In this document: piece by piece, positions 21,499 to 29,041 of the stretch
How positions within the stretch are numbered: position 1 is the stretch's first letter
Layout: each line of letters starts with the position of its first letter
Assembly (NCBI GenBank): GCA_003169845.1
Contig: PNAG01000028.1
Coordinates: 19,490 to 83,489, forward strand
Direction: 5' to 3'
DNA from: Candidatus Dormiibacterota bacterium
Lineage (GTDB): Bacteria; Chloroflexota; Dormibacteria; Dormibacterales; Dormibacteraceae
Length of the DNA: 64,000 nucleotides
Program-made: the position numbers and the translations under genes
The notes under the pieces: model-generated
Told to the model about the DNA's origin: nothing
The model's input: the letters and a program-made list of their open reading frames with translations, nothing else
The model's database searches: none

Positions 21499-22003
21499 GC
21501 ACAATCGATTGGACCCGGGTTTCGAATGGCGGCTGAAATCCGCCCTGGACCGGATCACTCCACCGGCGTCCTTTCCGCGCTACGCCTCGATGCCGGCAGG
21601 CGGCTTCACACCGTGGCGTATCGCACCCGTCATGCTCGCCGCCGCGACTGCCGTCCTCCTTGCGCTGGCGGCCACGGCCACCACCGGCAGCCCCAACCCG
21701 GCCGTCTGGACCCGCCAGGCCGGCTCGACCATCAGCTCGGTCGAGCATGCAGCCGAAGCGAGCCCCAGCCCGCAGCCCAGCCCGGCGCCACCGCCGTCGG
21801 CTTCACGGAAGGTCGTGGCCCCCGCCGCTCCGCACCAGCCCGAGCACAGCGCCGCGCCGAGGCCTCAACCTTCGGAACACCCCGAGGAGTCGCCGCGACC
21901 TCAGCCGAGCACCTCTCCGAGCCCATCCGAAGATCATTCAGGCTCGAAATCGGCCAACCCCAGCCCCTCGCCAAGTCCATCTCCGGAGTCTGGCGACCAC
22001 TAG
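21485..22003 (+). CDS. Putative anti-sigma factor: single-pass membrane protein with Pro/Ser-rich C-terminal tail
   Basis: Overlaps the sigma gene by 14 nt. One TM segment (IAPVMLAAATAVLLALAATA), followed by a low-complexity SPSP/PQPS region. Confidence 0.45.
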   Translation: MPSTEHNRLDPGFEWRLKSALDRITPPASFPRYASMPAGGFTPWRIAPVMLAAATAVLLALAATATTGSPNPAVWTRQAGSTISSVEHAAEASPSPQPSPAPPPSASRKVVAPAAPHQPEHSAAPRPQPSEHPEESPRPQPSTSPSPSEDHSGSKSANPSPSPSPSPESGDH

Positions 22004-22073
22004 CTCGAACCTTCCGACTTTCCGGATGCCGGGCGTTACTAGGCATTCACATAGGTCAACAAGGAGGACAAAC

Positions 22074-22514
22074 GTGCCCAGAAAGACGATGTTCAAGATC
22101 GGAGTTGCCACGGCCGCGGCCGCGGTAGCCGCGATCCTGGCGATCACCTCGGCATTCGCTCACGGGACCCCGACGACAACCGGACGCTCGATTGTCGCCA
22201 CCATCGTGAACACGGCCGCCGGGGCGGGCCTGACATCCAACGACTCGACCGCGTCGACGACGCTCACCGACGAGCAGACCGCGGACGCGGAGGAGGCTGC
22301 CGAGCTCGCGGCCAAGATCGCAGCCGAGCAGCAGCAGGAAGCGGCCGCGCTGGCTGCAAAGCAAGCCGCGCTGGCGGCGGAGCAGGCCGCGGAAGCCGCC
22401 AAGGCAACGGATACCGATAAGGACGCCTCGGAGGTCGAGCAAGCAGACACCGACCAGGAGTCGGCTCAGAAGACCGAGACCGACAGCTCAGGCGGCGACC
22501 ACCAGGGCGACTGA
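22074..22514 (+). CDS. Hypothetical secreted Ala/Glu/Gln-rich acidic protein
   Basis: GTG start 6 nt after AAGGAGG. Signal-peptide-like KIGVATAAAAVAAILAITSAFA, followed by AEQQQEAAALAAKQAALAAEQAAEAAKA. Confidence 0.45.
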   Translation: MPRKTMFKIGVATAAAAVAAILAITSAFAHGTPTTTGRSIVATIVNTAAGAGLTSNDSTASTTLTDEQTADAEEAAELAAKIAAEQQQEAAALAAKQAALAAEQAAEAAKATDTDKDASEVEQADTDQESAQKTETDSSGGDHQGD

Positions 22515-22528
22515 CCCAAACCGATCGC

Positions 22529-22593
22529 TTTCCCTCCCCCGCCAGGGGGAGGGAAGGGGTGGGGGGCGACCTGAGCCCGCTACCCCCTCCGCC
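22529..22593 (+). repeat. G/C-rich palindromic repeat, copy A
   Basis: Perfect 10 bp arms TCCCTCCCCC-GCCA-GGGGGAGGGA, followed by AGGGGTGGGGGGCGACCTGAGC. Lies between convergent genes and supplies the last codons of the FeS subunit. Confidence 0.75.
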
Positions 22594-23449
22594 TTTGCAC
22601 GAACTCGAACCCGAATCGTCCTTTCACGCACAGGTGTCCCTCGGTGACGCTGTGGTCGAGCGGCGAGGTCACTTTCACGATCGAGTTGTCCTGCACGTGA
22701 AGCTCGAGCATGCAGCCGACCCCGCAGTAAGGGCACACCGTCTCGGTCACCGTCTGCTGTGACTCGTCCCAGGTGCCGGCCTGGCGCATGTCGTACTCGC
22801 TCTTGAACATCAGCGCGCCGGTCGGACACACGCCGATGCAGTTTCCGCAGTAGACGCAGGCGGATTCGGGCAGCGGCGCGGTGAACTCCGTCGCGATGTG
22901 AGCGTCGAAGCCGCGGCCCGCCACACCGATCGCGAAAGTGTTCTGAGCATCTGCGCCACACGCCTCGACGCACTTGTAGCAGAGGATGCAGCGCGAGTAG
23001 TCGCGGACATAGAGGTCGTTGTCAATCTTCACCGGCTGCGCAACCGTCGCGACGTTTTCGCCAAAGCGCTCCGGGGTAGCTCCGTACCGCCGCATCCATC
23101 CATGGACCTGCGGCGAGCACAGCGACATGTCAACCGATGACGCGAGGAGCTCGAGCACGAGGCGCCGGCTGTGACGCACCCGCTCCGAGTCGGTCTGGAT
23201 CTTCATGCCCGCCTCGACCGTGCGCGAGCAGGCCGGGACCAGCACGCGCGACCCCTCCACCTCGACCACGCAAACACGGCAGACGTTGACCGGCGTCAGC
23301 GTCTCGAGCTGGCACAGAGTCGGCGTGTCGATGCGAAGCTGCCGGCACGCGTCGAGGATGGTCGCGCCCTCGAGCACGTCCATCTCCTGGCCGTCGATGC
23401 TCACCTTGACCAACCGCTTCGGCAGACCGACGAATACTCGCTCAGCCAT
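22580..23449 (-). CDS. Formate dehydrogenase Fe-S subunit (N-terminal NuoG-like part of FdhA)
   Basis: 289 aa carrying a 2Fe-2S ferredoxin domain, two 4Fe-4S motifs and the molybdopterin-type 4Fe-4S domain. Motifs: CRVC.., CILCYKCVEAC, CVYCGNCIGVCP, then CPYCGVGC...LCVKGRFGFEF. The ORF stops where the catalytic domain normally begins. Confidence 0.8.
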   Translation of the reverse strand: MAERVFVGLPKRLVKVSIDGQEMDVLEGATILDACRQLRIDTPTLCQLETLTPVNVCRVCVVEVEGSRVLVPACSRTVEAGMKIQTDSERVRHSRRLVLELLASSVDMSLCSPQVHGWMRRYGATPERFGENVATVAQPVKIDNDLYVRDYSRCILCYKCVEACGADAQNTFAIGVAGRGFDAHIATEFTAPLPESACVYCGNCIGVCPTGALMFKSEYDMRQAGTWDESQQTVTETVCPYCGVGCMLELHVQDNSIVKVTSPLDHSVTEGHLCVKGRFGFEFVQRRRG

Positions 23450-25232
23450 TGATCACCTTGAGCTGTGTGAGTCCCGACGCGATCGCGTTCGCCGCCGTCT
23501 GGCCCAGCCCACAGATCGACGCATCGCGCATCGCCTGCGCGATGTCGCTCAGAAGGCTCATGTCGGAGTCGCGTGCCTCTCCGTTGCGATCGCTGAGCAG
23601 CCGGTGCAGGACCTCTTCCTGCCGCACCGTGCCGACGCGACAGGGCACGCACTGCCCGCACGACTCATCGCGGAAAAACCGCGCGATGCGAAGCAGGATC
23701 TGCTTCACGTCGGCGGAGTCGTCGAGAACGATCACGGCGCCGGATCCAAGGGTCGCCCCGATCGCGCGCGTCCCCTCGAAGCTGAGCGGGACGTCGAGCT
23801 GCCGCTCGGTGACGAACGAACCGGCCGCTCCGCCGAGCAGCACCGCTTGCAGGCTGTGGCCGTCGCGCAGGCCGCCGGCGAGGTCGATCAGCGCCCGCAG
23901 CGTCGTGCCCATGGGGACCTCGTAGAGGCCAGGTTCGCGTACGTGGCCCGAGAGGCAGAAAAGCCGCGTCCCGGTGGAGTCGGGAGTGCCGGTCGCCGCA
24001 AAAGCGGCTCCTCCCTCGACGACGATGTCCAGCACGTTGACCAGCGTCTCCACGTTGTTGACGAGCGTCGGCTTGCCAAAGAGACCCGCCTGCACCGGGA
24101 ACGGCGGCTTGTTGCGCGGCTCGCCGCGCTTTCCCTCGATCGAGTTGAAAAGCGCAGTCTCCTCGCCGCATATGTAGGCTCCCGCGCCCCGGCGGACCTC
24201 GATGTCGCAATCTAGAAATCCACGCGCGCGAGCCTGGTCGATAGCGTTTTCGATCCGACGCCTCGCCAGCGGATACTCACCTCGGACGTACAGGTAGCCC
24301 TTCTCACACCCGGTGGCAAACGCGGCGATAGTCATCCCCTCGATCACAGCGAATGGATCACGCTCCATCAGCTCGCGGTCCTTGAAGGTTCCGGGTTCGG
24401 ACTCGTCCGCGTTGCACACGATGTAGTGAGGGCGGACCGGGGCTTTCGACACGGAATCCCACTTGCGCCCGGTTGGGAACGCCGCACCTCCTCGGCCGAG
24501 CAGCTTCGCTTCCGTCACCTGGCGGATGACGCCTTCAGGACCGAGCTCGATCGCCCGCCGCAGCGCGGCGTAGCCGCCATGCTCGCGGTAGCTGTCGATG
24601 CTCTCGGGATCGACGACACCAATCCGCCGCAAGAGCTTGCGTGGACGGTCAGGCAGCGCGGGGACTTCTGCTTGAGGCCAATCGCTTCCACGCAGGATGT
24701 CCTGCGCCACGTCGATGGTGAGGGGCGCCACCTGGCGCTCGTCGTGAGCTGCTCCCGCACGCTCCACCAGAGCCGCCGGTGCTCGGTCGCACAGGCCGAG
24801 ACAGGGGCTGCGATGCCACGTCTTGCCCGCCGGACCGGCGGTCTTTTCGAGCGCCTCGCACAGGGCGTCGGCGCCCGCGCACTTGCAGGCGATGTCATCG
24901 CAGACGTGAAGCACGAGGGGCGGCCTTTCGTCGAGCGCAAAGCGTCCGTAGAAGCTCACGACTCCGTAGGCCTCTGCCGGGGGGATCGACAACCTGCGGC
25001 ATGCGTACTCCAGTCCGCCACGGCTGACCCAGCCGACTCTGTCCTGGATCGCGTGAAGCACCGGGAGCAGCAGCGGGCGCCGAGACCGCGCGGCGGCGCC
25101 GCCGAAGCCGACGTGGTCGTCCTCCGGCCGGCGCGTCCCACCCTCCCAGAGCGAAGCGGGGTCGCCGAGCAAGCCGTCGACCGCCGCGATCTCCTCGGCC
25201 GTCGGTGGCCCCCCGGTGGTCCGGATGTCCAC
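23442..25232 (-). CDS. NAD-linked formate dehydrogenase diaphorase subunit (NuoE-like + NuoF-like fusion)
   Basis: 596 aa with an N-terminal thioredoxin-like 2Fe-2S part (VCDDIACKC...CLGLCD). The NuoF FMN/NADH core follows (GRGGAAFPTGRKW, ESCGQCVPCR). Confidence 0.85.
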   Translation of the reverse strand: MDIRTTGGPPTAEEIAAVDGLLGDPASLWEGGTRRPEDDHVGFGGAAARSRRPLLLPVLHAIQDRVGWVSRGGLEYACRRLSIPPAEAYGVVSFYGRFALDERPPLVLHVCDDIACKCAGADALCEALEKTAGPAGKTWHRSPCLGLCDRAPAALVERAGAAHDERQVAPLTIDVAQDILRGSDWPQAEVPALPDRPRKLLRRIGVVDPESIDSYREHGGYAALRRAIELGPEGVIRQVTEAKLLGRGGAAFPTGRKWDSVSKAPVRPHYIVCNADESEPGTFKDRELMERDPFAVIEGMTIAAFATGCEKGYLYVRGEYPLARRRIENAIDQARARGFLDCDIEVRRGAGAYICGEETALFNSIEGKRGEPRNKPPFPVQAGLFGKPTLVNNVETLVNVLDIVVEGGAAFAATGTPDSTGTRLFCLSGHVREPGLYEVPMGTTLRALIDLAGGLRDGHSLQAVLLGGAAGSFVTERQLDVPLSFEGTRAIGATLGSGAVIVLDDSADVKQILLRIARFFRDESCGQCVPCRVGTVRQEEVLHRLLSDRNGEARDSDMSLLSDIAQAMRDASICGLGQTAANAIASGLTQLKVING

Positions 25233-27166
25233 TAGGTTCTGATGCCTGCGGGCAGCTTCTCGATCCTGATCGCGCTGGCTTTGAACTCGGCCGTGCCTGA
25301 CTTGGGATCGGTCGCGTCGATGGTGAGGACGTTGGTGGCCACCTGGTCGGGAAAGTGAAGCGTGAGGAACGCCAGGCCCGGCCGCAGCGATTCGTCAAAC
25401 CGGATCGGCACCTCGACCGACCCTCGGCGCGAGCTGGCAAGGACCCGCTCGCCGTCATGGATGCCGAGCCGCTCGCCGTCCGCCGGCGAGATCAGGAGCG
25501 CCTCCCTCTTGCGCAGCGGCGAGCTGTATTGGTTGCTCTGCACGCCGGTGTTGAACGAGTCGAGCCGCCGGCCGGTGGTGAGCCGGATTGGAAAGTCCTT
25601 CGTCAGGCGGTCGACTGGCGGGTCGTGCTCCACGGCGTGAAACGGTGCCGGCATCCCTTCGACAGGGTCCTTCCACAATCGCGCGTGCAGGAACTGAGTG
25701 CCTGGGTGCGACTCGTCTGGGCAGGGCCACTGGATTCCGCCAAGCTCGTCGAGCCGCGCGTACGACATCCCGGCGTGCATCGGCGAAAGCTCGCGGCACT
25801 CATCCCACACCTGCTCGGCGGTCGGGCGACCCCAGTCGCACCCGAGCCGGCGAGCGAGCTCGCCGATGATCTCGAGATCGTCACGGGCCCCGACCGGCGG
25901 CTCCAGCGCACGGCGAACGCGCTGCACGCGCCGCTCGCTGTTGGTGACCGTGCCGTCGGACTCCGCCCAGCCGGCCGTCGCGGGCAGCACGACGTGAGCC
26001 AGCTCCGCCGTTTGGGTCAGGAAGATGTCCTGCACGACCAGGTGCTCGAGGCCGCCGAGCAGTCGAACCGCGCGAGTTTGGTCCGCCTCGCTGCGCGCCG
26101 GGTTCTCGCCCACGATGTAGGCCGCTGTCAGCTCGCCATGCTCCATAGCGTCGAACATCTCGCTGAGGTGGTAGCCCTTCTTGTCGGGAAACTGAGCGCC
26201 GCCCCACGCGCGTGAGAACTTGGCGTGGATGTCAGGTTCCTGGAGGTCCTGGAACCCGGGCAGCCGGGCGGGGATGGCGCCCATGTCACCGCCTCCCTGG
26301 ACGTTGTTCTGGCCGCGCAGCGGATTCAGGCCGCAGCCGTAGCGGCCGACCTTGCCGGTGAGCAGCGCGAGGTTGATCAGCGCCAGCACGTTGTCGGTGG
26401 CGTTGTGATGCTCGGTGATGCCAAGCGTCCAGCAGATCATCGCCCGTTCGGCGCGCGCGTATTCGAGCGCGACGTCCCTGATCGCGTCTGCAGGCACCCC
26501 GGTTTCTTTCTCAGCAACCTCGAGCGTGTAAGCCTCGACGCAGCGGGCGAACTCCTCATAGCCCGTCGTGGCCCGCTCGATAAACTCCTTGTTCGCCAGG
26601 CCCGCGTGGATGATCACGCGCGCCATTGCGTTGGCCAGCGCGATGTCGCTGCCAACATCGATGCCCAGCCACACGTCGGCCCACTGCGCGGAGCTGGTGC
26701 GCCGCGGATCCACCGCCACCAGGCGTGCTCCGTTACGGACGCCGCGGAGCAGGTGATGGAAGAAGATCGGGTGCGTCTCGCGCGCGTTGGAGCCCCACAG
26801 GATCACGAGGTTCGTTTCCTCAGCCTCGCGATACGAGCTGGTTCCTCCTCCGGCTCCGAACACTGTCGCCAGACCGGCGACGCTTGGAGCGTGTCAAGTC
26901 CGGTTGCAGCTGTCGATGTTGTTGCTGTGCATCACGGCGCGAGTGAACTTCTGCGCGATGTAGTTCATCTCGTTGCTCTGCTTGGAGCAGCTGAACATCC
27001 CGAAAGCGTTCGGCCCTCGGGTCCTGGCCGTCGCGAAGCCGGCCGCGGCCAGCTCGAGCGCCTCCTCCCAGGAAGCGGGGCGCAGCCGCCCACCTTCTCT
27101 GACGAGAGGCTCGGCCAGACGGACGAGCCCGTCATCCATGAGAAGGACAATATAGGAGCGTGCCAC
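25232..27166 (-). CDS. fdhA: Formate dehydrogenase catalytic (Mo/W-bis-PGD) subunit, selenocysteine at in-frame TGA 26894-26896
   Basis: ORFs 26894..27166 and 25232..26863 share one frame. Read-through gives NNIDSCNRT-U-HAPSVAGLATVFGAGGG, and a SECIS-like hairpin follows. The start may be ATG at 27139. Confidence 0.8.
26865..26881 (-). promoter_or_regulatory. SECIS-like stem-loop (GUCGCC-GGUCU-GGCGAC) 12 nt downstream of the UGA
   Basis: Perfect 6 bp stem. The GGUCU loop sits at codon +7 after the UGA, the same offset I recall for the E. coli fdhF SECIS. Confidence 0.65.
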
Positions 27167-27176
27167 GCTGTGAGCT

Positions 27177-27716
27177 ATGAGCGACGAACATAATCGGCCG
27201 CTAGCCGAAACTGTCGTTCTGGTTCCAGCGCTCGACGTAGGTCAGTTGGTGCACGAGCTTCGGATGCAGCACGACCCAAGTGCTGCCGCTGGAATACCTC
27301 CCCACGTCACCCTGATGTTTCCATTCATGCCTCCATCAGATCTAAATGCACCTGCAATTGACACGCTTGACAGAGTTATCAGCAGCGCGGGAGCTTTCCA
27401 GTTTTCTCTAACGGGGGTGAACCAATTCGAACAGGGTGTCGTCTACCTAGAGCCAGAACCTGTCGAGCCCTTTGCCCGCCTGACGAGAGAGATCAGTCGG
27501 CAGTTCGGCATTCTGCCTTTCGACGGTGATTTCGGGGACGAGCCAGTGGTTCATCTAACCGTCGCAGTAGTTGAGTCAGCCTCAATACGTCAGCAGCTAG
27601 CAACCCAGCTAGGCGGCGTAGTCCCGATTGTCATCAAAGCTGAAGAAGCGTGGCTCATGGTTGGCACCAATGCCAGCACATGGAACATCGTTCGAAAGAT
27701 GCGGTTTCGCAGCTGA
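27177..27716 (+). CDS. 2H-phosphoesterase / 2'-5' RNA ligase (LigT-like) family protein
   Basis: 179 aa with two H-x-T-x motifs (PHVTLMF and VHLTVAV). Visibly lower GC than the flanking sequence. Confidence 0.65.
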   Translation: MSDEHNRPLAETVVLVPALDVGQLVHELRMQHDPSAAAGIPPHVTLMFPFMPPSDLNAPAIDTLDRVISSAGAFQFSLTGVNQFEQGVVYLEPEPVEPFARLTREISRQFGILPFDGDFGDEPVVHLTVAVVESASIRQQLATQLGGVVPIVIKAEEAWLMVGTNASTWNIVRKMRFRS

Positions 27717-27729
27717 ATCCCGCGCGACG

Positions 27730-29013
27730 CTAGCTGTTGGGTGCGGCCCGCGCCTCAGCAAAAGCGCACGCATCCGCGATCAGGCTAACCGCGTAGCTGA
27801 ACTGCATCGCCTCGCCGCCCCACAGCGACAAAGGCGTGCTCGGACCGATGTCCGGATGCCTGTGCGCGCTCACCGGATCTCGAGCCGGTGGCTGGATCAC
27901 ATGTCCGTCGTCTGTCTCGAATGAAAATCCGCCCACTATTTTGCGGATGCGATACGCACCCGAGTGGTGACGCCGGTGATGAAACCCGCACAAAAGCAGG
28001 AGGTTGTCCAGGTTGGTTTCGCCACCGAGCGCCCAATGCTCATGGTGATGAGCTTCTGTACGGTACGCCGGCACGCCACAACCAGGAAACCGGCAGAAGC
28101 GATCTCTCACGTGGACCGCCAGGCGCAGCCGGTCCGGCACCATGCGCTGCTTGCGGCCGACATCGATCGGCAATCCATCCCTTTCGGTCACACCGATCAC
28201 CTCGGCCTCGCAGCCGATTCGCCGCGCCGCGCCGGCCGACAGCGCTGAACCGCCTTCGACAAAACACCGTCCTGCGCTCTCCCCGGTGAGCACCCCAACG
28301 TCGACATGCACCACGACCTGGCGTGCTGCAGTCGACGTGACCAGGTTCTCCGCCCCACCCGCGACCACGTGCTCGCACATCGCCACCAAGGCATCAACTT
28401 TGCGCGCCGCCCAGCGGTCGTCGGCCGGCTCCGGCACCGGCCGCGATCCGGTGATCGACTCCAGCGCAGCCTGCACCACGGCGGCATCTTCGGGCGTGAG
28501 CCTGGCCACGAGCTCGAGCATGCCGTGCTCGTCCCAGTGCATCCAGATCCCTCGCCGCGAGAGATGGTCTTCGGCTTGCTCGGGAGCATCGGCCTCGGCG
28601 ATCCGTCGCAGCGAACGGCAGATCCTCGCCAGCTGGGCGCCAGATGCGCCTTGCGCAATCTCGAGCAGAAACTCATCCGTCGCGGGAGTCGCCACCGTCG
28701 TGATCTGCCGGACCTTGTCGAACGACAGCTGCCCGGCCTCGAACGCCGCGGCTATCTTTGGTAGCAACCTCATCGCCTGACCAACTCGCAGCAACTCGGC
28801 GCCGGTGTGCATATCGAACCCGGTCTTGATCGTCAGCCAGTGTGGGAAGGACCGGATTCCACCACCGCTCCAGCCACCGATCGCATCGAACTCGACGCTC
28901 GCTTTGGCGACCTGTGCCAGCGCCACGTGGGCGTAGGCCGAGACCTCGCCGATCCGGTCGTCAAGAGCCTTTGCGAGGTCCTGATTCTCTGGGCTGGTCG
29001 ACGCGTACTCCAC
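27730..29013 (-). CDS. DUF222-type HNH endonuclease (13E12-repeat-like family), paralog 2
   Basis: 427 aa. HNH/Zn motif CRFPGCGVP..HHHEHW..GGETNLDNLLLLCGFHHRRHH; N-terminal DUF222-like region. Confidence 0.8.
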   Translation of the reverse strand: MEYASTSPENQDLAKALDDRIGEVSAYAHVALAQVAKASVEFDAIGGWSGGGIRSFPHWLTIKTGFDMHTGAELLRVGQAMRLLPKIAAAFEAGQLSFDKVRQITTVATPATDEFLLEIAQGASGAQLARICRSLRRIAEADAPEQAEDHLSRRGIWMHWDEHGMLELVARLTPEDAAVVQAALESITGSRPVPEPADDRWAARKVDALVAMCEHVVAGGAENLVTSTAARQVVVHVDVGVLTGESAGRCFVEGGSALSAGAARRIGCEAEVIGVTERDGLPIDVGRKQRMVPDRLRLAVHVRDRFCRFPGCGVPAYRTEAHHHEHWALGGETNLDNLLLLCGFHHRRHHSGAYRIRKIVGGFSFETDDGHVIQPPARDPVSAHRHPDIGPSTPLSLWGGEAMQFSYAVSLIADACAFAEARAAPNS

Positions 29014-29020
29014 ACATCAA

Positions 29021-29041
29021 ACTATACCAAACAGACGTTCG
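29021..29041 (-). promoter_or_regulatory. SOS-box-like site plus -10 element for HNH paralog 2
   Basis: Minus strand reads CGAACGTCTGTTTGG-TATAGT-7 nt-GTG. GAAC-N4-GTTT lies at 29029-29040, nearly identical to the site at 5384-5395. Confidence 0.5.

What the first reader, a model, noticed from the sequence alone, without database searches (positions are those of the whole stretch)
22580..27166. FdhA is split after its 4Fe-4S domain and the halves are encoded in permuted order around a NuoE-NuoF fusion
- **Normal arrangement.** In NAD-linked formate dehydrogenases (FdsA type) a single polypeptide carries three parts in order. First is the NuoG-like Fe-S N-terminus, then the molybdopterin-type 4Fe-4S domain (CPYCGVGC...LCVKG), then the catalytic domain.
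- **What is seen here.** The 289 aa ORF 22580..23449 ends at ..HLCVKGRFGFEFVQRRRG. The catalytic ORF (27166 or 27139 down to 25232) begins ..DDGLVRLAEPLVREGGRLRPASWEEAL. That is exactly the segment that normally follows ...CVKGRFGFxFV.
- **Gene order.** The order on the minus strand is catalytic half, then the NuoE/F fusion, then the Fe-S half. The junctions overlap (a 1 nt TAG/GTG overlap at 25232 and ATGGCTGA at 23442-23449).
- **Interpretation.** The two halves must reassemble non-covalently from a permuted operon. I do not recall this arrangement being described.
Basis: partly seen in the sequence, partly recalled or inferred. Interest (0 to 1): 0.7.

Follow-up and report, generated by a model that had tools for sequence, protein, structure and literature searches.

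The report
Three-subunit split selenocysteine formate dehydrogenase operon
The split and reordered formate dehydrogenase genes are real, but they are the normal layout of an enzyme family found in many soil bacteria and already noted once in the literature (Actinomycetospora 'FDH3'), so this is a new member of a known kind.

Summary
**Observation confirmed.** Three translationally coupled genes lie on the minus strand:
- a catalytic Mo/W-pterin subunit (27139..25232, with an in-frame UGA selenocysteine codon and a SECIS hairpin);
- a NuoE-NuoF fusion (25232..23442);
- a 289-aa Fe-S protein (23449..22580) that ends just after the molybdopterin-type 4Fe-4S ("FS0") domain.

The NCBIfam Fdh-alpha profile is divided cleanly. 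Positions 1-50 fall on the Fe-S protein and positions 53-672 on the catalytic protein.

**Not an artefact, not unique.** The same order occurs in 4 related metagenome contigs. It also occurs in 53 species-representative genomes labelled as about nine phyla, including cultured Streptomyces, Amycolatopsis and Nonomuraea. Relatives with only 38-49% identity keep the canonical order, NuoEF then a fused or adjacent FeS-catalytic gene.

**Already described.** Rohwerder et al. 2020 reported this three-subunit architecture as cytoplasmic "FDH3" of Actinomycetospora chiangmaiensis (640 aa with U80, 614 aa, 316 aa). All three proteins were detected by proteomics. An Actinomycetospora ortholog is 57-66% identical to the window proteins.

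**Best explanation.** A soluble, probably NAD+-linked formate dehydrogenase that assembles non-covalently, with FS0 supplied by a separate subunit.

**Still undescribed, as far as I could find:** the exact break point after FS0, the reordering of the genes, and the breadth of distribution.

The parts
25232..27139 (-). Catalytic subunit gene. It is about 635 aa with selenocysteine at residue 82 and holds the Molybdopterin and Molydop_binding domains. It has no FS0 4Fe-4S domain. The stop codon TAG is at 25234-25232.
   Evidence: - Pfam domains.
- TIGR01591 profile positions 53-672, 649 bits against a cutoff of 666.
- Best PDB matches start at residue 61-65 of FdhF-type enzymes and at residue 308 of FdsA.
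- Homology to relatives starts at 27139.
26894..26896 (-). In-frame UGA codon for selenocysteine, in the motif CNRT-U-HAPS. This residue is the ligand of the Mo/W centre.
   Evidence: - Sequence read directly.
- TGA in every Sec-type member of the clade and TGC/TGT in Streptomyces, Amycolatopsis, Nonomuraea and Sphaerisporangium.
26853..26890 (-). SECIS-like hairpin. The core is GUCGCC-GGUCU-GGCGAC, beginning 13 nt after the UGA.
   Evidence: - Predicted fold of -20.5 kcal/mol, not significant on its own (z = -1.1).
- The GGUCUG loop and the stem are kept in every TGA-bearing locus. Stem changes are compensatory in L013, L052, L058 and L069.
- Both are lost in every Cys locus.
23442..25232 (-). 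NuoE-NuoF fusion subunit (596 aa). It holds a 2Fe-2S cluster, the FMN/NAD(H) site and the N3-type 4Fe-4S cluster. Its GTG start overlaps the catalytic gene's stop by 1 nt.
   Evidence: - Pfam and NCBIfam matches.
- PDB matches to 9bov_B and to M. extorquens Fdh1B, 7e5z_B.
- Conserved C111, C116, C144, C148 and C525, C528, C531, C574.
- Junction sequence.
22580..23449 (-). Fe-S subunit (289 aa). It is a NuoG/HoxU-like module with one 2Fe-2S and two 4Fe-4S clusters, followed by the FS0 domain. Its ATG overlaps the end of the NuoEF gene by 8 nt.
   Evidence: - Pfam domains.
- PDB alignment to Fdh1A residues 71-340 and FdsA residues 16-303.
- 16 conserved Cys in 45 clade members.
- The ORF stops 5-35 aa after CxKGRFG in all clade members.
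22595..22753 (-). The segment coding for the molybdopterin-type 4Fe-4S (FS0) domain, residues 233-285 (C239, C242, C246, C274). In this family it sits on a different polypeptide from the pterin domains.
   Evidence: - PF04879, E=8e-20.
- TIGR01591 profile positions 1-50.
- The four Cys are invariant.

Best explanation
The three genes encode a soluble, cytoplasmic formate dehydrogenase of the Mo/W-bis-pyranopterin type, with selenocysteine at the active site. It is built from three separate polypeptides instead of the usual FdsA/B/G or Fdh1A/B sets.

**Proposed mechanism**
1. Formate is oxidised at the Sec-His/Arg active site of the catalytic subunit.
2. Electrons leave through the FS0 [4Fe-4S] cluster. 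Its binding domain is the C-terminal 55 residues of the separate Fe-S subunit, and it must dock onto the catalytic subunit to complete 'domain I'.
3. Electrons pass along two ferredoxin-type [4Fe-4S] clusters of that subunit, which also carries a [2Fe-2S] cluster.
4. They reach the N3-type [4Fe-4S] cluster and the FMN of the NuoE-NuoF fusion, where NAD+ (or NADP+) is reduced.

**What is shown**
- The domain content, the complementary break point and the conserved cluster ligands.
- Conserved gene order and co-variation of the three proteins.
- Overlapping stop and start codons.
- Presence of the UGA codon with a SECIS hairpin.
- Expression of all three proteins in an Actinomycetospora species (published).

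**What is inferred**
- Physical assembly of the complex.
- NAD+ as the electron acceptor.
- The physiological direction (formate oxidation in an aerobic soil bacterium).

**Origin.** The arrangement is the ancestral state of a distinct clade. It is not a rearrangement peculiar to this genome.
For: - **Complementary halves.** Searches show that the two halves tile the Fdh-alpha profile and FdsA without overlap.
- **Recurrence.** Searches give the same order in L001, L002 and L004 and in 53 genome-collection loci with FeS identity of 59% or more. These include complete chromosomes (OZ242259.1) and cultured strains (S. scabiei ATCC 49173, S. parvulus JCM 4068, A. azurea DSM 43854).
- **Same break point.** In every member the Fe-S ORF ends just after CxKGRFGxxxV, and the motif CNRT[U/C]HAPS is invariant.
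- **One selected unit.** All cluster-ligand Cys are conserved. Pairwise identities of FeS, EF and CAT correlate within the clade (r = 0.74-0.82). Every within-clade identity (55% or more) exceeds the highest identity to canonical relatives (44% for CAT, 52% for FeS).
- **Coupled translation.** One search shows the overlaps here. EF/FeS overlaps also occur in Amycolatopsis and Actinomycetospora.
- **Selenocysteine.** The SECIS hairpin co-varies with the presence of TGA.
- **Published case.** In FDH3 of A. chiangmaiensis all three subunits were detected and rose 2-3 fold on a formate-yielding substrate, and formate removal depended on selenium.
- **Same family by sequence.** A. corticicola has U80 and the same order, with 66/57/64% identity to the window proteins.
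- **No bifurcation-type domains.** EF ends with the NADH_4Fe-4S domain and has no extra ferredoxin domains.
Against: - No enzyme of this clade has been purified, so the complex, its stoichiometry and its acceptor (NAD+, NADP+, or something else) are untested.
- In two loci with enough upstream sequence (L008, L027), no catalytic gene lies next to the EF-FeS pair. Linkage is therefore not absolute.
- I could not model the complex. A monomer AlphaFold model of the Fe-S subunit was poor (pLDDT 52).
- No fdhD or fdsD-like accessory gene was seen next to the operon in the loci I inspected.
Confidence: 0.85

Rival explanations
1. The enzyme is an electron-bifurcating or ferredoxin-coupled formate dehydrogenase of the HylABC-FdhF2 kind. 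It would use NAD+ together with ferredoxin, rather than being a simple NAD+-linked enzyme.
For: - The best PDB matches of the NuoEF protein include subunits of bifurcating or Stn-type complexes (9bov_B, 8oh5_B, 7q4v_B, 8a6t_B).
- The catalytic half scores higher against FdhF-type enzymes than against FdsA (485 versus 404 bits).
Against: - EF has only the NuoE 2Fe-2S domain and the NuoF FMN and N3 domains, with no C-terminal ferredoxin-like clusters.
- From general knowledge, bifurcating HydB/HylB subunits carry such extra clusters.
- The next-best match is the non-bifurcating M. extorquens Fdh1B, itself a NuoE/F fusion.
- The hosts are mostly aerobic soil bacteria such as Streptomyces and Amycolatopsis.
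Confidence: 0.07
2. The Fe-S and NuoEF proteins form an independent diaphorase module, like HoxFU, that serves another enzyme. The adjacent catalytic protein would then work with a different partner.
For: - The Fe-S protein resembles HoxU, HndD and NuoG N-termini.
- In L008 and L027 the EF-FeS pair has no adjacent catalytic gene.
Against: - The Fe-S protein carries an FS0 domain that is only meaningful next to a pterin subunit, and the catalytic protein lacks exactly that domain.
- The genes are adjacent in 53 of 55 informative genome loci, and the proteins co-vary.
- Stop and start codons overlap.
Confidence: 0.05
3. The arrangement is an assembly artefact, or a recently disrupted fdhA pseudogene in this one genome.
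For: - The window is from an uncultured organism.
- A 2-kb insertion sits immediately upstream of the operon.
Against: - The same arrangement occurs in more than 50 independent assemblies, including closed chromosomes and isolates.
- The ORFs are intact and all ligands are conserved.
- More than 120 cluster representatives of about 289 aa show 85-91% identity.
Confidence: 0.01
4. The two halves are re-joined covalently, by protein trans-splicing or by some recoding event, to give a normal full-length FdhA.
For: None found. It was considered only because the halves abut so precisely.
Against: - The Fe-S C-terminal tail is 5-35 aa and unconserved.
- The catalytic N-terminus has only about 6 residues before the conserved RLxxPL. 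Neither end has room for split-intein halves.
- Pfam finds no intein domains.
- The NuoEF gene lies between the two halves.
Confidence: 0.01

Closest known systems
FDH3 (FdhA3/FdhB3/FdhC3) of Actinomycetospora chiangmaiensis DSM 45062 (Rohwerder et al. 2020, Front Microbiol 11:691, PMC7176365)
   Same: - Three subunits of 640, 614 and 316 aa, against about 635, 596 and 289 aa here.
- Sec at U80, against U82 here.
- The alpha subunit is homologous only to the C-terminal pterin part of FdsA/Fdh1A.
- The beta subunit is a NuoE+NuoF fusion.
- A separate Fe-S protein replaces the alpha N-terminus.
- The listed order is A-B-C.
- The congeneric A. corticicola locus has the same order and U80, with 66/57/64% identity to the window proteins.
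   Different: - Different phylum: Actinomycetota, against a probable Dormibacterota here (going by best-hit names).
- The A. chiangmaiensis sequences themselves were not available to me, so identity was tested only at genus level.
- The paper does not state that the cut lies after FS0 or that the order is permuted.
FdsABG(D) of Rhodobacter capsulatus / Cupriavidus necator (PDB 6tg9/6tga)
   Same: - The same cofactor chain: Mo-bisPGD, FS0, 4Fe-4S and 2Fe-2S clusters, the NuoF FMN and N3 sites, and the NuoE 2Fe-2S cluster.
- The two halves align to FdsA residues 16-303 and 308-931.
   Different: - FdsA is one polypeptide.
- NuoE-like FdsG and NuoF-like FdsB are separate proteins.
- From general knowledge: the gene order is fdsGBACD, the metal ligand is Cys, and an FdsD subunit is present.
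- Identity to the window proteins is only about 37-40%.
Tungsten Fdh1AB of Methylorubrum extorquens AM1 (PDB 7e5z/7vw6)
   Same: - The beta subunit is a NuoE/NuoF fusion.
- Its alpha N-terminus is the best PDB match of the Fe-S protein. Like the window protein, it has no Cys in the segment aligned to window residues 100-125.
   Different: The alpha subunit is a single 989-aa chain that includes FS0 and the pterin domains.
FdhF-type selenoenzymes (E. coli FdhH 1aa6; T. kivui HDCR FdhF 7qv7_S)
   Same: - They are the closest solved relatives of the catalytic half (485 and 459 bits).
- They share the U-H and RGQ active-site motifs.
   Different: - They carry their own FS0 domain. The window protein's alignment starts at their residue 61-63.
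- Their partner modules differ (hydrogenase or HycB-like proteins).
HoxU-like Fe-S protein plus FdhF with its own FS0, i.e. a split before FS0 (seen here in L076 and L083; HylA/FdhF2-like layouts)
   Same: The NuoG-like Fe-S module and the catalytic module are separate polypeptides next to NuoEF.
   Different: - The break lies at the domain boundary before FS0.
- The gene order is canonical (EF, FeS, CAT).
- Identity to the window proteins is only 40-50%.
FwdB/FwdD (FmdB/D) of formylmethanofuran dehydrogenase
   Same: It is a precedent for a Mo/W-bisPGD catalytic unit made of two polypeptides (general knowledge, not tested here).
   Different: The separated piece there is the C-terminal domain IV, not the N-terminal FS0 domain.

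Membership tests
Mo/W-bisPGD formate dehydrogenase catalytic subunit (FdhF/FdsA class, 'C/U-H ... R-G-Q') | A Sec or Cys metal ligand followed by His | tested here: met
   CNRT-U-HAPS with a TGA codon. The motif is invariant across the clade as U or C plus H.
Mo/W-bisPGD formate dehydrogenase catalytic subunit (FdhF/FdsA class, 'C/U-H ... R-G-Q') | The conserved active-site Arg in the RGQ motif | tested here: met
   PLRGQNNVQG is present and aligns to the same motif of T. kivui FdhF and the Fdh chain 7bkb_D.
Mo/W-bisPGD formate dehydrogenase catalytic subunit (FdhF/FdsA class, 'C/U-H ... R-G-Q') | Molybdopterin and Molydop_binding domains, and an equivalog-level profile match | tested here: inconclusive
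   Both Pfam domains are strong. TIGR01591 scores 648.8 bits, just under its 666.25 cutoff, because profile positions 1-52 are missing from this polypeptide.
Mo/W-bisPGD formate dehydrogenase catalytic subunit (FdhF/FdsA class, 'C/U-H ... R-G-Q') | An N-terminal FS0 [4Fe-4S] domain on the same chain | tested here: not met
   PF04879 is absent from the catalytic protein. It is present at residues 233-285 of the separate Fe-S protein instead.
NAD+-linked soluble FDH (FdsABG / Fdh1AB type) | A NuoG-like Fe-S module, a NuoF-like FMN/NAD module and a NuoE-like 2Fe-2S module, all encoded with the catalytic unit | tested here: met
   All modules are present in one operon and all cluster-ligand Cys are conserved.
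NAD+-linked soluble FDH (FdsABG / Fdh1AB type) | A single alpha polypeptide carrying the Fe-S N-terminus, FS0 and the pterin domains | tested here: not met
   The chain is split between FdsA-equivalent residues 303 and 308. The stop codon falls after CxKGRFGxxxV in all clade members.
NAD+-linked soluble FDH (FdsABG / Fdh1AB type) | Formate:NAD+ oxidoreductase activity | not testable with these tools
   Only indirect published evidence exists: selenium-dependent formate removal and induction of FDH3 subunits in A. chiangmaiensis.
FDH3-type three-subunit FDH (Actinomycetospora, Rohwerder 2020) | An alpha subunit of about 640 aa lacking the Fe-S N-terminus, with Sec near residue 80 | tested here: met
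   About 635 aa with U82 here. A. corticicola has 647 aa with U80, at 66% identity.
FDH3-type three-subunit FDH (Actinomycetospora, Rohwerder 2020) | A NuoE-NuoF fusion beta subunit of about 600 aa and a separate Fe-S subunit of about 300 aa, in gene order alpha-beta-FeS | tested here: met
   596 aa and 289 aa here, in the same order. A. corticicola has 618 aa and 310 aa in the same order, at 57% and 64% identity.
Electron-bifurcating HylABC-FdhF2 type FDH | FdhF2 has its own FS0, NuoE-like HylC is a separate protein, and the NuoF-like subunit carries extra ferredoxin-type clusters | tested here: not met
   The catalytic protein lacks FS0, NuoE is fused to NuoF, and no ferredoxin domains lie beyond the NADH_4Fe-4S domain. 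The definition of the family is from general knowledge.

The most novel reading that the evidence does not exclude
A single gene fission placed the FS0 cluster domain on a different polypeptide from the pterin domains, and the catalytic gene moved ahead of nuoEF. These changes founded one clade, which then spread by horizontal transfer and switched repeatedly between Sec and Cys. It would now be a major, biochemically and structurally uncharacterised, soluble formate dehydrogenase of aerobic soil bacteria (Dormibacterota, Acidobacteriota, Actinomycetota, Chloroflexota, Planctomycetota, Gemmatimonadota and others). Supplying FS0 from a separate subunit might let the pterin subunit mature independently before it docks onto the electron-transfer module. 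Neither the break point nor the reordering nor this distribution appears in the literature I could search.
Probability: 0.4. Interest if true: 0.5.

Novelty: new member of a known kind. Interest (0 to 1): 0.3.

Why it matters
- **Annotation.** Gene callers break the catalytic gene at the UGA codon. NCBIfam's Fdh-alpha model narrowly misses it because the first 52 profile positions sit on another protein. The Fe-S subunit is usually labelled only '2Fe-2S iron-sulfur cluster-binding protein', 'HndD' or 'YjgC'. Formate oxidation capacity in Dormibacterota and other soil lineages is therefore easy to overlook.
- **Enzymology.** This is a natural case of a Mo/W-bisPGD enzyme whose proximal FS0 cluster domain comes from a separate subunit. 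It could be a useful template for modular, oxygen-tolerant CO2/formate catalysts, and Cys-type versions exist in tractable Streptomyces and Amycolatopsis strains.
- **Limits.** It does not reveal a new kind of system. The cofactor chain and the chemistry are those of known NAD-linked formate dehydrogenases.

Tried and rejected
- **Rfam** scan of 22000-27800 at E<=1 found nothing. Support for the SECIS hairpin rests on comparative evidence instead.
- **tRNA scan** found no tRNA, and so no tRNA-Sec, in the window. I did not search for selA, selB or selD.
- **Promoter and terminator scan** of 22000-29200 was uninformative: no promoter-like sites, and terminator-like sites at the chance level.
- **Hairpin energy alone** is not significant (z = -1.1).
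- **The 50%-cluster representative search** was dominated by fragments and frameshifted metagenome proteins. Only P0121 and P0122 were clean split forms. The many hits of 350-380 aa are most simply read as fused Sec-FDHs truncated at their UGA (shown for some).
- **AlphaFold2 of the Fe-S subunit** with an 18-sequence alignment gave pLDDT 52 and pTM 0.46. That is too poor for a fold search, so none was run.
- **Complex modelling** was not possible. The tool takes single chains and only sequences from the window or from the homolog search, so a paired alignment could not be supplied.
- **Literature searches** for Dormibacterota FDH, Streptomyces FDH with NuoF, SCO6559-6561, 'NuoG-like split' and NuoE/NuoF fusion terms found nothing on the break point or the permutation. 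Papers on ForCE, the Amycolatopsis methanolica genome, mycobacterial Sec and the DMSOR superfamily deal with other FDH types.
- **Rejected explanations:** mis-assembly or pseudogene, intein-mediated re-ligation, and an independent HoxFU-like module (see rivals).


Full report
**1. What is in the window**

Three genes lie head to tail on the minus strand between 27139 and 22580.

- **Catalytic gene (27139..25232).** It encodes a protein of about 635 aa with only the Molybdopterin and Molydop_binding domains.
  - Its frame contains a TGA at 26896-26894 inside CNRT-U-HAPSVAGL. This is the position of the Sec or Cys metal ligand in formate dehydrogenases.
  - The following His and the PLRGQNNVQG arginine motif are also present.
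- **NuoE-NuoF fusion gene (25232..23442).** It encodes a 596-aa protein with 2Fe-2S_thioredx, Complex1_51K, SLBB and NADH_4Fe-4S domains.
- **Fe-S gene (23449..22580).** It encodes a 289-aa protein with Fer2_4, Fer4_Nqo3, two ferredoxin-type 4Fe-4S motifs and a C-terminal Molybdop_Fe4S4 (FS0) domain. It ends ...CVKGRFGFEFVQRRRG.

**2. The split is clean and complementary**

- NCBIfam's Fdh-alpha model (TIGR01591) matches the Fe-S protein with profile positions 1-50 and the catalytic protein with positions 53-672.
- Against R. capsulatus FdsA (6tg9_A) the Fe-S protein covers residues 16-303 and the catalytic protein covers 308-931.
- Against FdhF-type enzymes the catalytic protein starts aligning at their residue 61-65, just past their own FS0 domain.
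- About four linker residues of a fused enzyme are therefore replaced by a 5-residue C-terminal tail and a 6-residue N-terminal leader.
- No second FDH-like gene exists in the window.

**3. It is not an artefact and not unique**

- The Fe-S protein has more than 120 cluster representatives at 85-91% identity, all about 289 aa. Those that carry names are labelled Candidatus Dormibacteraeota or 'Chloroflexi bacterium' MAGs.
- Four metagenome contigs carrying one such protein were read. Three (L001, L002, L004) show the same three-gene order; L003 starts at the end of the NuoEF gene. All have the same downstream neighbours, and L001 and L002 also share the upstream ones.
- I scanned one genome per GTDB species with an alignment of split forms, then ran tblastn with the three window proteins. 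This gave 53 loci with the order catalytic, NuoEF, FeS on one strand.
- Every locus whose Fe-S protein is 59% or more identical to the window's belongs to this group, unless a contig end removes the upstream region. The two exceptions are described below.
- The record labels include:
  - cultured Streptomyces scabiei ATCC 49173, S. parvulus JCM 4068, Amycolatopsis azurea DSM 43854, A. eburnea and Nonomuraea;
  - closed Bryobacterales chromosomes;
  - MAGs of Acidobacteriota, Chloroflexota, Acidimicrobiia, Gaiellales, Planctomycetota, Gemmatimonadota, Verrucomicrobiota and Armatimonadota. MAG labels are the submitters' own and were not checked.
- In all of these loci the Fe-S ORF stops 5-35 residues after CxKGRFG(F/W/Y)xxV.
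- Loci with only 38-49% identity (L068, L073-L084) have the canonical order: NuoEF, then a fused FeS-catalytic gene.
- L076 and L083 are split before the FS0 domain instead. L074 and L075 also show a gap between the NuoG-like part and FS0.

**4. The three proteins behave as one selected unit**

I aligned 45 clade members.

- All 16 Cys of the Fe-S protein are conserved. They are four for the 2Fe-2S cluster, four plus four for the two ferredoxin-type clusters, and four for FS0.
- The NuoE ligands (C111, C116, C144, C148) and the NuoF N3 ligands (C525, C528, C531, C574) are also conserved.
- Pairwise identities of the three proteins correlate within the clade (r = 0.74-0.82).
- Within-clade identities have minima of 55-56% for FeS and CAT. 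These exceed every identity to canonical relatives (maxima 52% and 44%).
- This fits a single origin followed by vertical and horizontal spread. A rooted phylogeny was not made.
- **Exceptions.** In L008 and L027 the EF-FeS pair has unrelated genes upstream and no catalytic gene within the sequence held.

**5. Selenocysteine**

- A hairpin, GUCGCC-GGUCU-GGCGAC, begins 13 nt after the UGA.
- Its folding energy alone is unremarkable. The comparison across loci is what counts:
  - Every TGA-bearing locus keeps the GGUCUG loop and the stem. The stem changes are compensatory (GUGGUC/GGCCAC in L058 and L069; GUCGUC/GACGAC in L013 and L052).
  - Every locus with TGC or TGT has lost both features. These are Streptomyces, Amycolatopsis, Nonomuraea and Sphaerisporangium.
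- The catalytic subunit here is therefore a selenoprotein, and the clade has switched between Sec and Cys.

**6. What is already known**

- Rohwerder et al. 2020 (PMC7176365) list a cytoplasmic 'FDH3' for Actinomycetospora chiangmaiensis DSM 45062: FdhA3 of 640 aa, FdhB3 of 614 aa and FdhC3 of 316 aa.
- All three were detected by proteomics and rose 2-3 fold on 2-hydroxyisobutyrate. Formate removal depended on selenium.
- Their Supplementary Figure S4 states three things:
  - FdhA3 (U80) is homologous only to the C-terminal metallopterin part of the AM1 and H16 alpha subunits.
  - A 'separate but homologous' FdhC3 replaces the N-terminal Fe-S domain.
  - FdhB3 combines NuoE-like and NuoF-like domains.
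- Actinomycetospora species appear among the homologs of the clade.
- The A. corticicola locus has genes of 647 aa (U80), 618 aa and 310 aa in the same order. They are 66, 57 and 64% identical to the window proteins.
- Hundreds of actinomycete genomes annotate the Fe-S protein. Most use '2Fe-2S iron-sulfur cluster-binding protein', and some use 'NAD-dependent formate dehydrogenase iron-sulfur protein'.
- In Amycolatopsis mediterranei the trio is called at 638, 581 and 285 aa.
- The three-subunit architecture is therefore known and expressed. In the searchable literature I did not find any statement that the cut lies after FS0 rather than before it, that the order is permuted relative to fdsGBA, or how widely the clade is distributed.

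**7. Mechanism**

*Shown.* The domain complement, the complementary break, the conserved ligands, the overlapping stop and start codons, the co-variation, the UGA codon with its SECIS hairpin, and published co-expression of the three proteins.

*Inferred.*
- The FS0 domain at the C-terminus of the Fe-S subunit docks onto the catalytic subunit and completes its domain I.
- Electrons from formate pass from Mo/W-Sec to FS0, then through the 4Fe-4S clusters of the Fe-S subunit, then to NuoF N3 and FMN, and finally to NAD(P)+.
- The NuoEF protein has no ferredoxin-type domains beyond N3, which argues against flavin-based bifurcation.
- Its structural matches include M. extorquens Fdh1B, a non-bifurcating enzyme that is also a NuoE/F fusion.
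- Covalent re-joining is excluded in practice, because the new termini are too short and too variable to hold intein halves.

**8. Verdict**

- The arrangement is the normal, conserved layout of a widespread clade that has been described once. This operon is a new (probably Dormibacterota) member of a known kind.
- Residual interest lies in the lack of any biochemical or structural characterisation, the FS0 domain being supplied by a separate subunit, and the systematic mis-annotation of these genes.

Noticed in passing
window 27140-29111: This roughly 2-kb segment carries a LigT/2'-5' RNA ligase-family gene (27177..27716, plus strand) and a DUF222/HNH endonuclease gene (27730..29013, minus strand). 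It is an insertion relative to the closest relatives L001 and L005, where the aminotransferase gene (window 29089..30276) ends 14-36 nt before the catalytic FDH gene. Only 37 nt are left between the FDH start and the divergent LigT-like start, so the operon's promoter must lie inside the inserted DNA.
   Followed up: partly
window 26853-26896 and loci L005-L072: The catalytic residue switches between Sec and Cys within one clade. TGA plus a conserved SECIS hairpin occurs in most phyla. TGC or TGT, with the hairpin degraded, occurs in Streptomyces, Amycolatopsis, Nonomuraea and Sphaerisporangium. A Pseudonocardiaceae MAG (L052) and Actinomycetospora keep Sec.
   Followed up: yes
L008 1-6045; L027 1-3665: Two clade members (a Chloroflexi MAG and a Planctomycetota MAG) have the NuoEF-FeS pair but no catalytic gene next to it. 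The upstream ORFs are large Ig-like or galactose-binding-domain proteins. The catalytic gene may be elsewhere in those genomes.
   Followed up: partly
L076 8560-8900; L083 6600-6960 (also L074, L075): These more distant relatives keep the canonical order but are split at a different place, before the FS0 domain. A HoxU-like protein ends ...CPTGALKSKRE..., and the next ORF starts M...CPYCGVGC. Fission of the NuoG-like module from the catalytic module has therefore happened at least twice, at different boundaries.
   Followed up: partly
L010 5131-5976; L011 3507-4814; L072 3531-5941; L054 6357-8001: Some clade members carry extra ORFs inside the operon. L010 and L011 share a Cys-rich ORF of about 165 aa between the catalytic and NuoEF genes, and L072 has a membrane protein of about 396 aa there. 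L054 has a 467-aa ORF on the opposite strand between NuoEF and FeS. None was identified.
   Followed up: no
P0001 (392 aa, ENA metagenome contig): This close homolog of the Fe-S protein has an internal duplication of about 80 residues, spanning the second 4Fe-4S motif to the start of FS0. It could be an assembly artefact or a real duplication.
   Followed up: no
P0418, P0432, P0434, P0474, P0481, P0483 (Pseudonocardia and Actinomycetospora Fe-S proteins): Many are called at 380-408 aa instead of about 310 aa. Either the family has an extension in these genera or the start codons are called too far upstream in high-GC DNA. I did not check which.
   Followed up: no
L005, L006 (record titles): The two genome-collection loci closest to the window (85-87% identity, same synteny) are labelled 'Verrucomicrobiia bacterium' and 'Candidatus Micrarchaeaceae archaeon'. 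Protein-level names for the same family say Candidatus Dormibacteraeota. These MAG labels look unreliable.
   Followed up: no
L085 9980-13384: In Amycolatopsis mediterranei the FDH trio sits next to genes whose Pfam domains suggest glyoxylate metabolism: an AP_endonuc_2 (hydroxypyruvate isomerase-like) gene, an NAD_binding_11 reductase gene and a TPP enzyme (glyoxylate carboligase-like) gene. This hints at a link to C1/C2 acid catabolism in that host.
   Followed up: no
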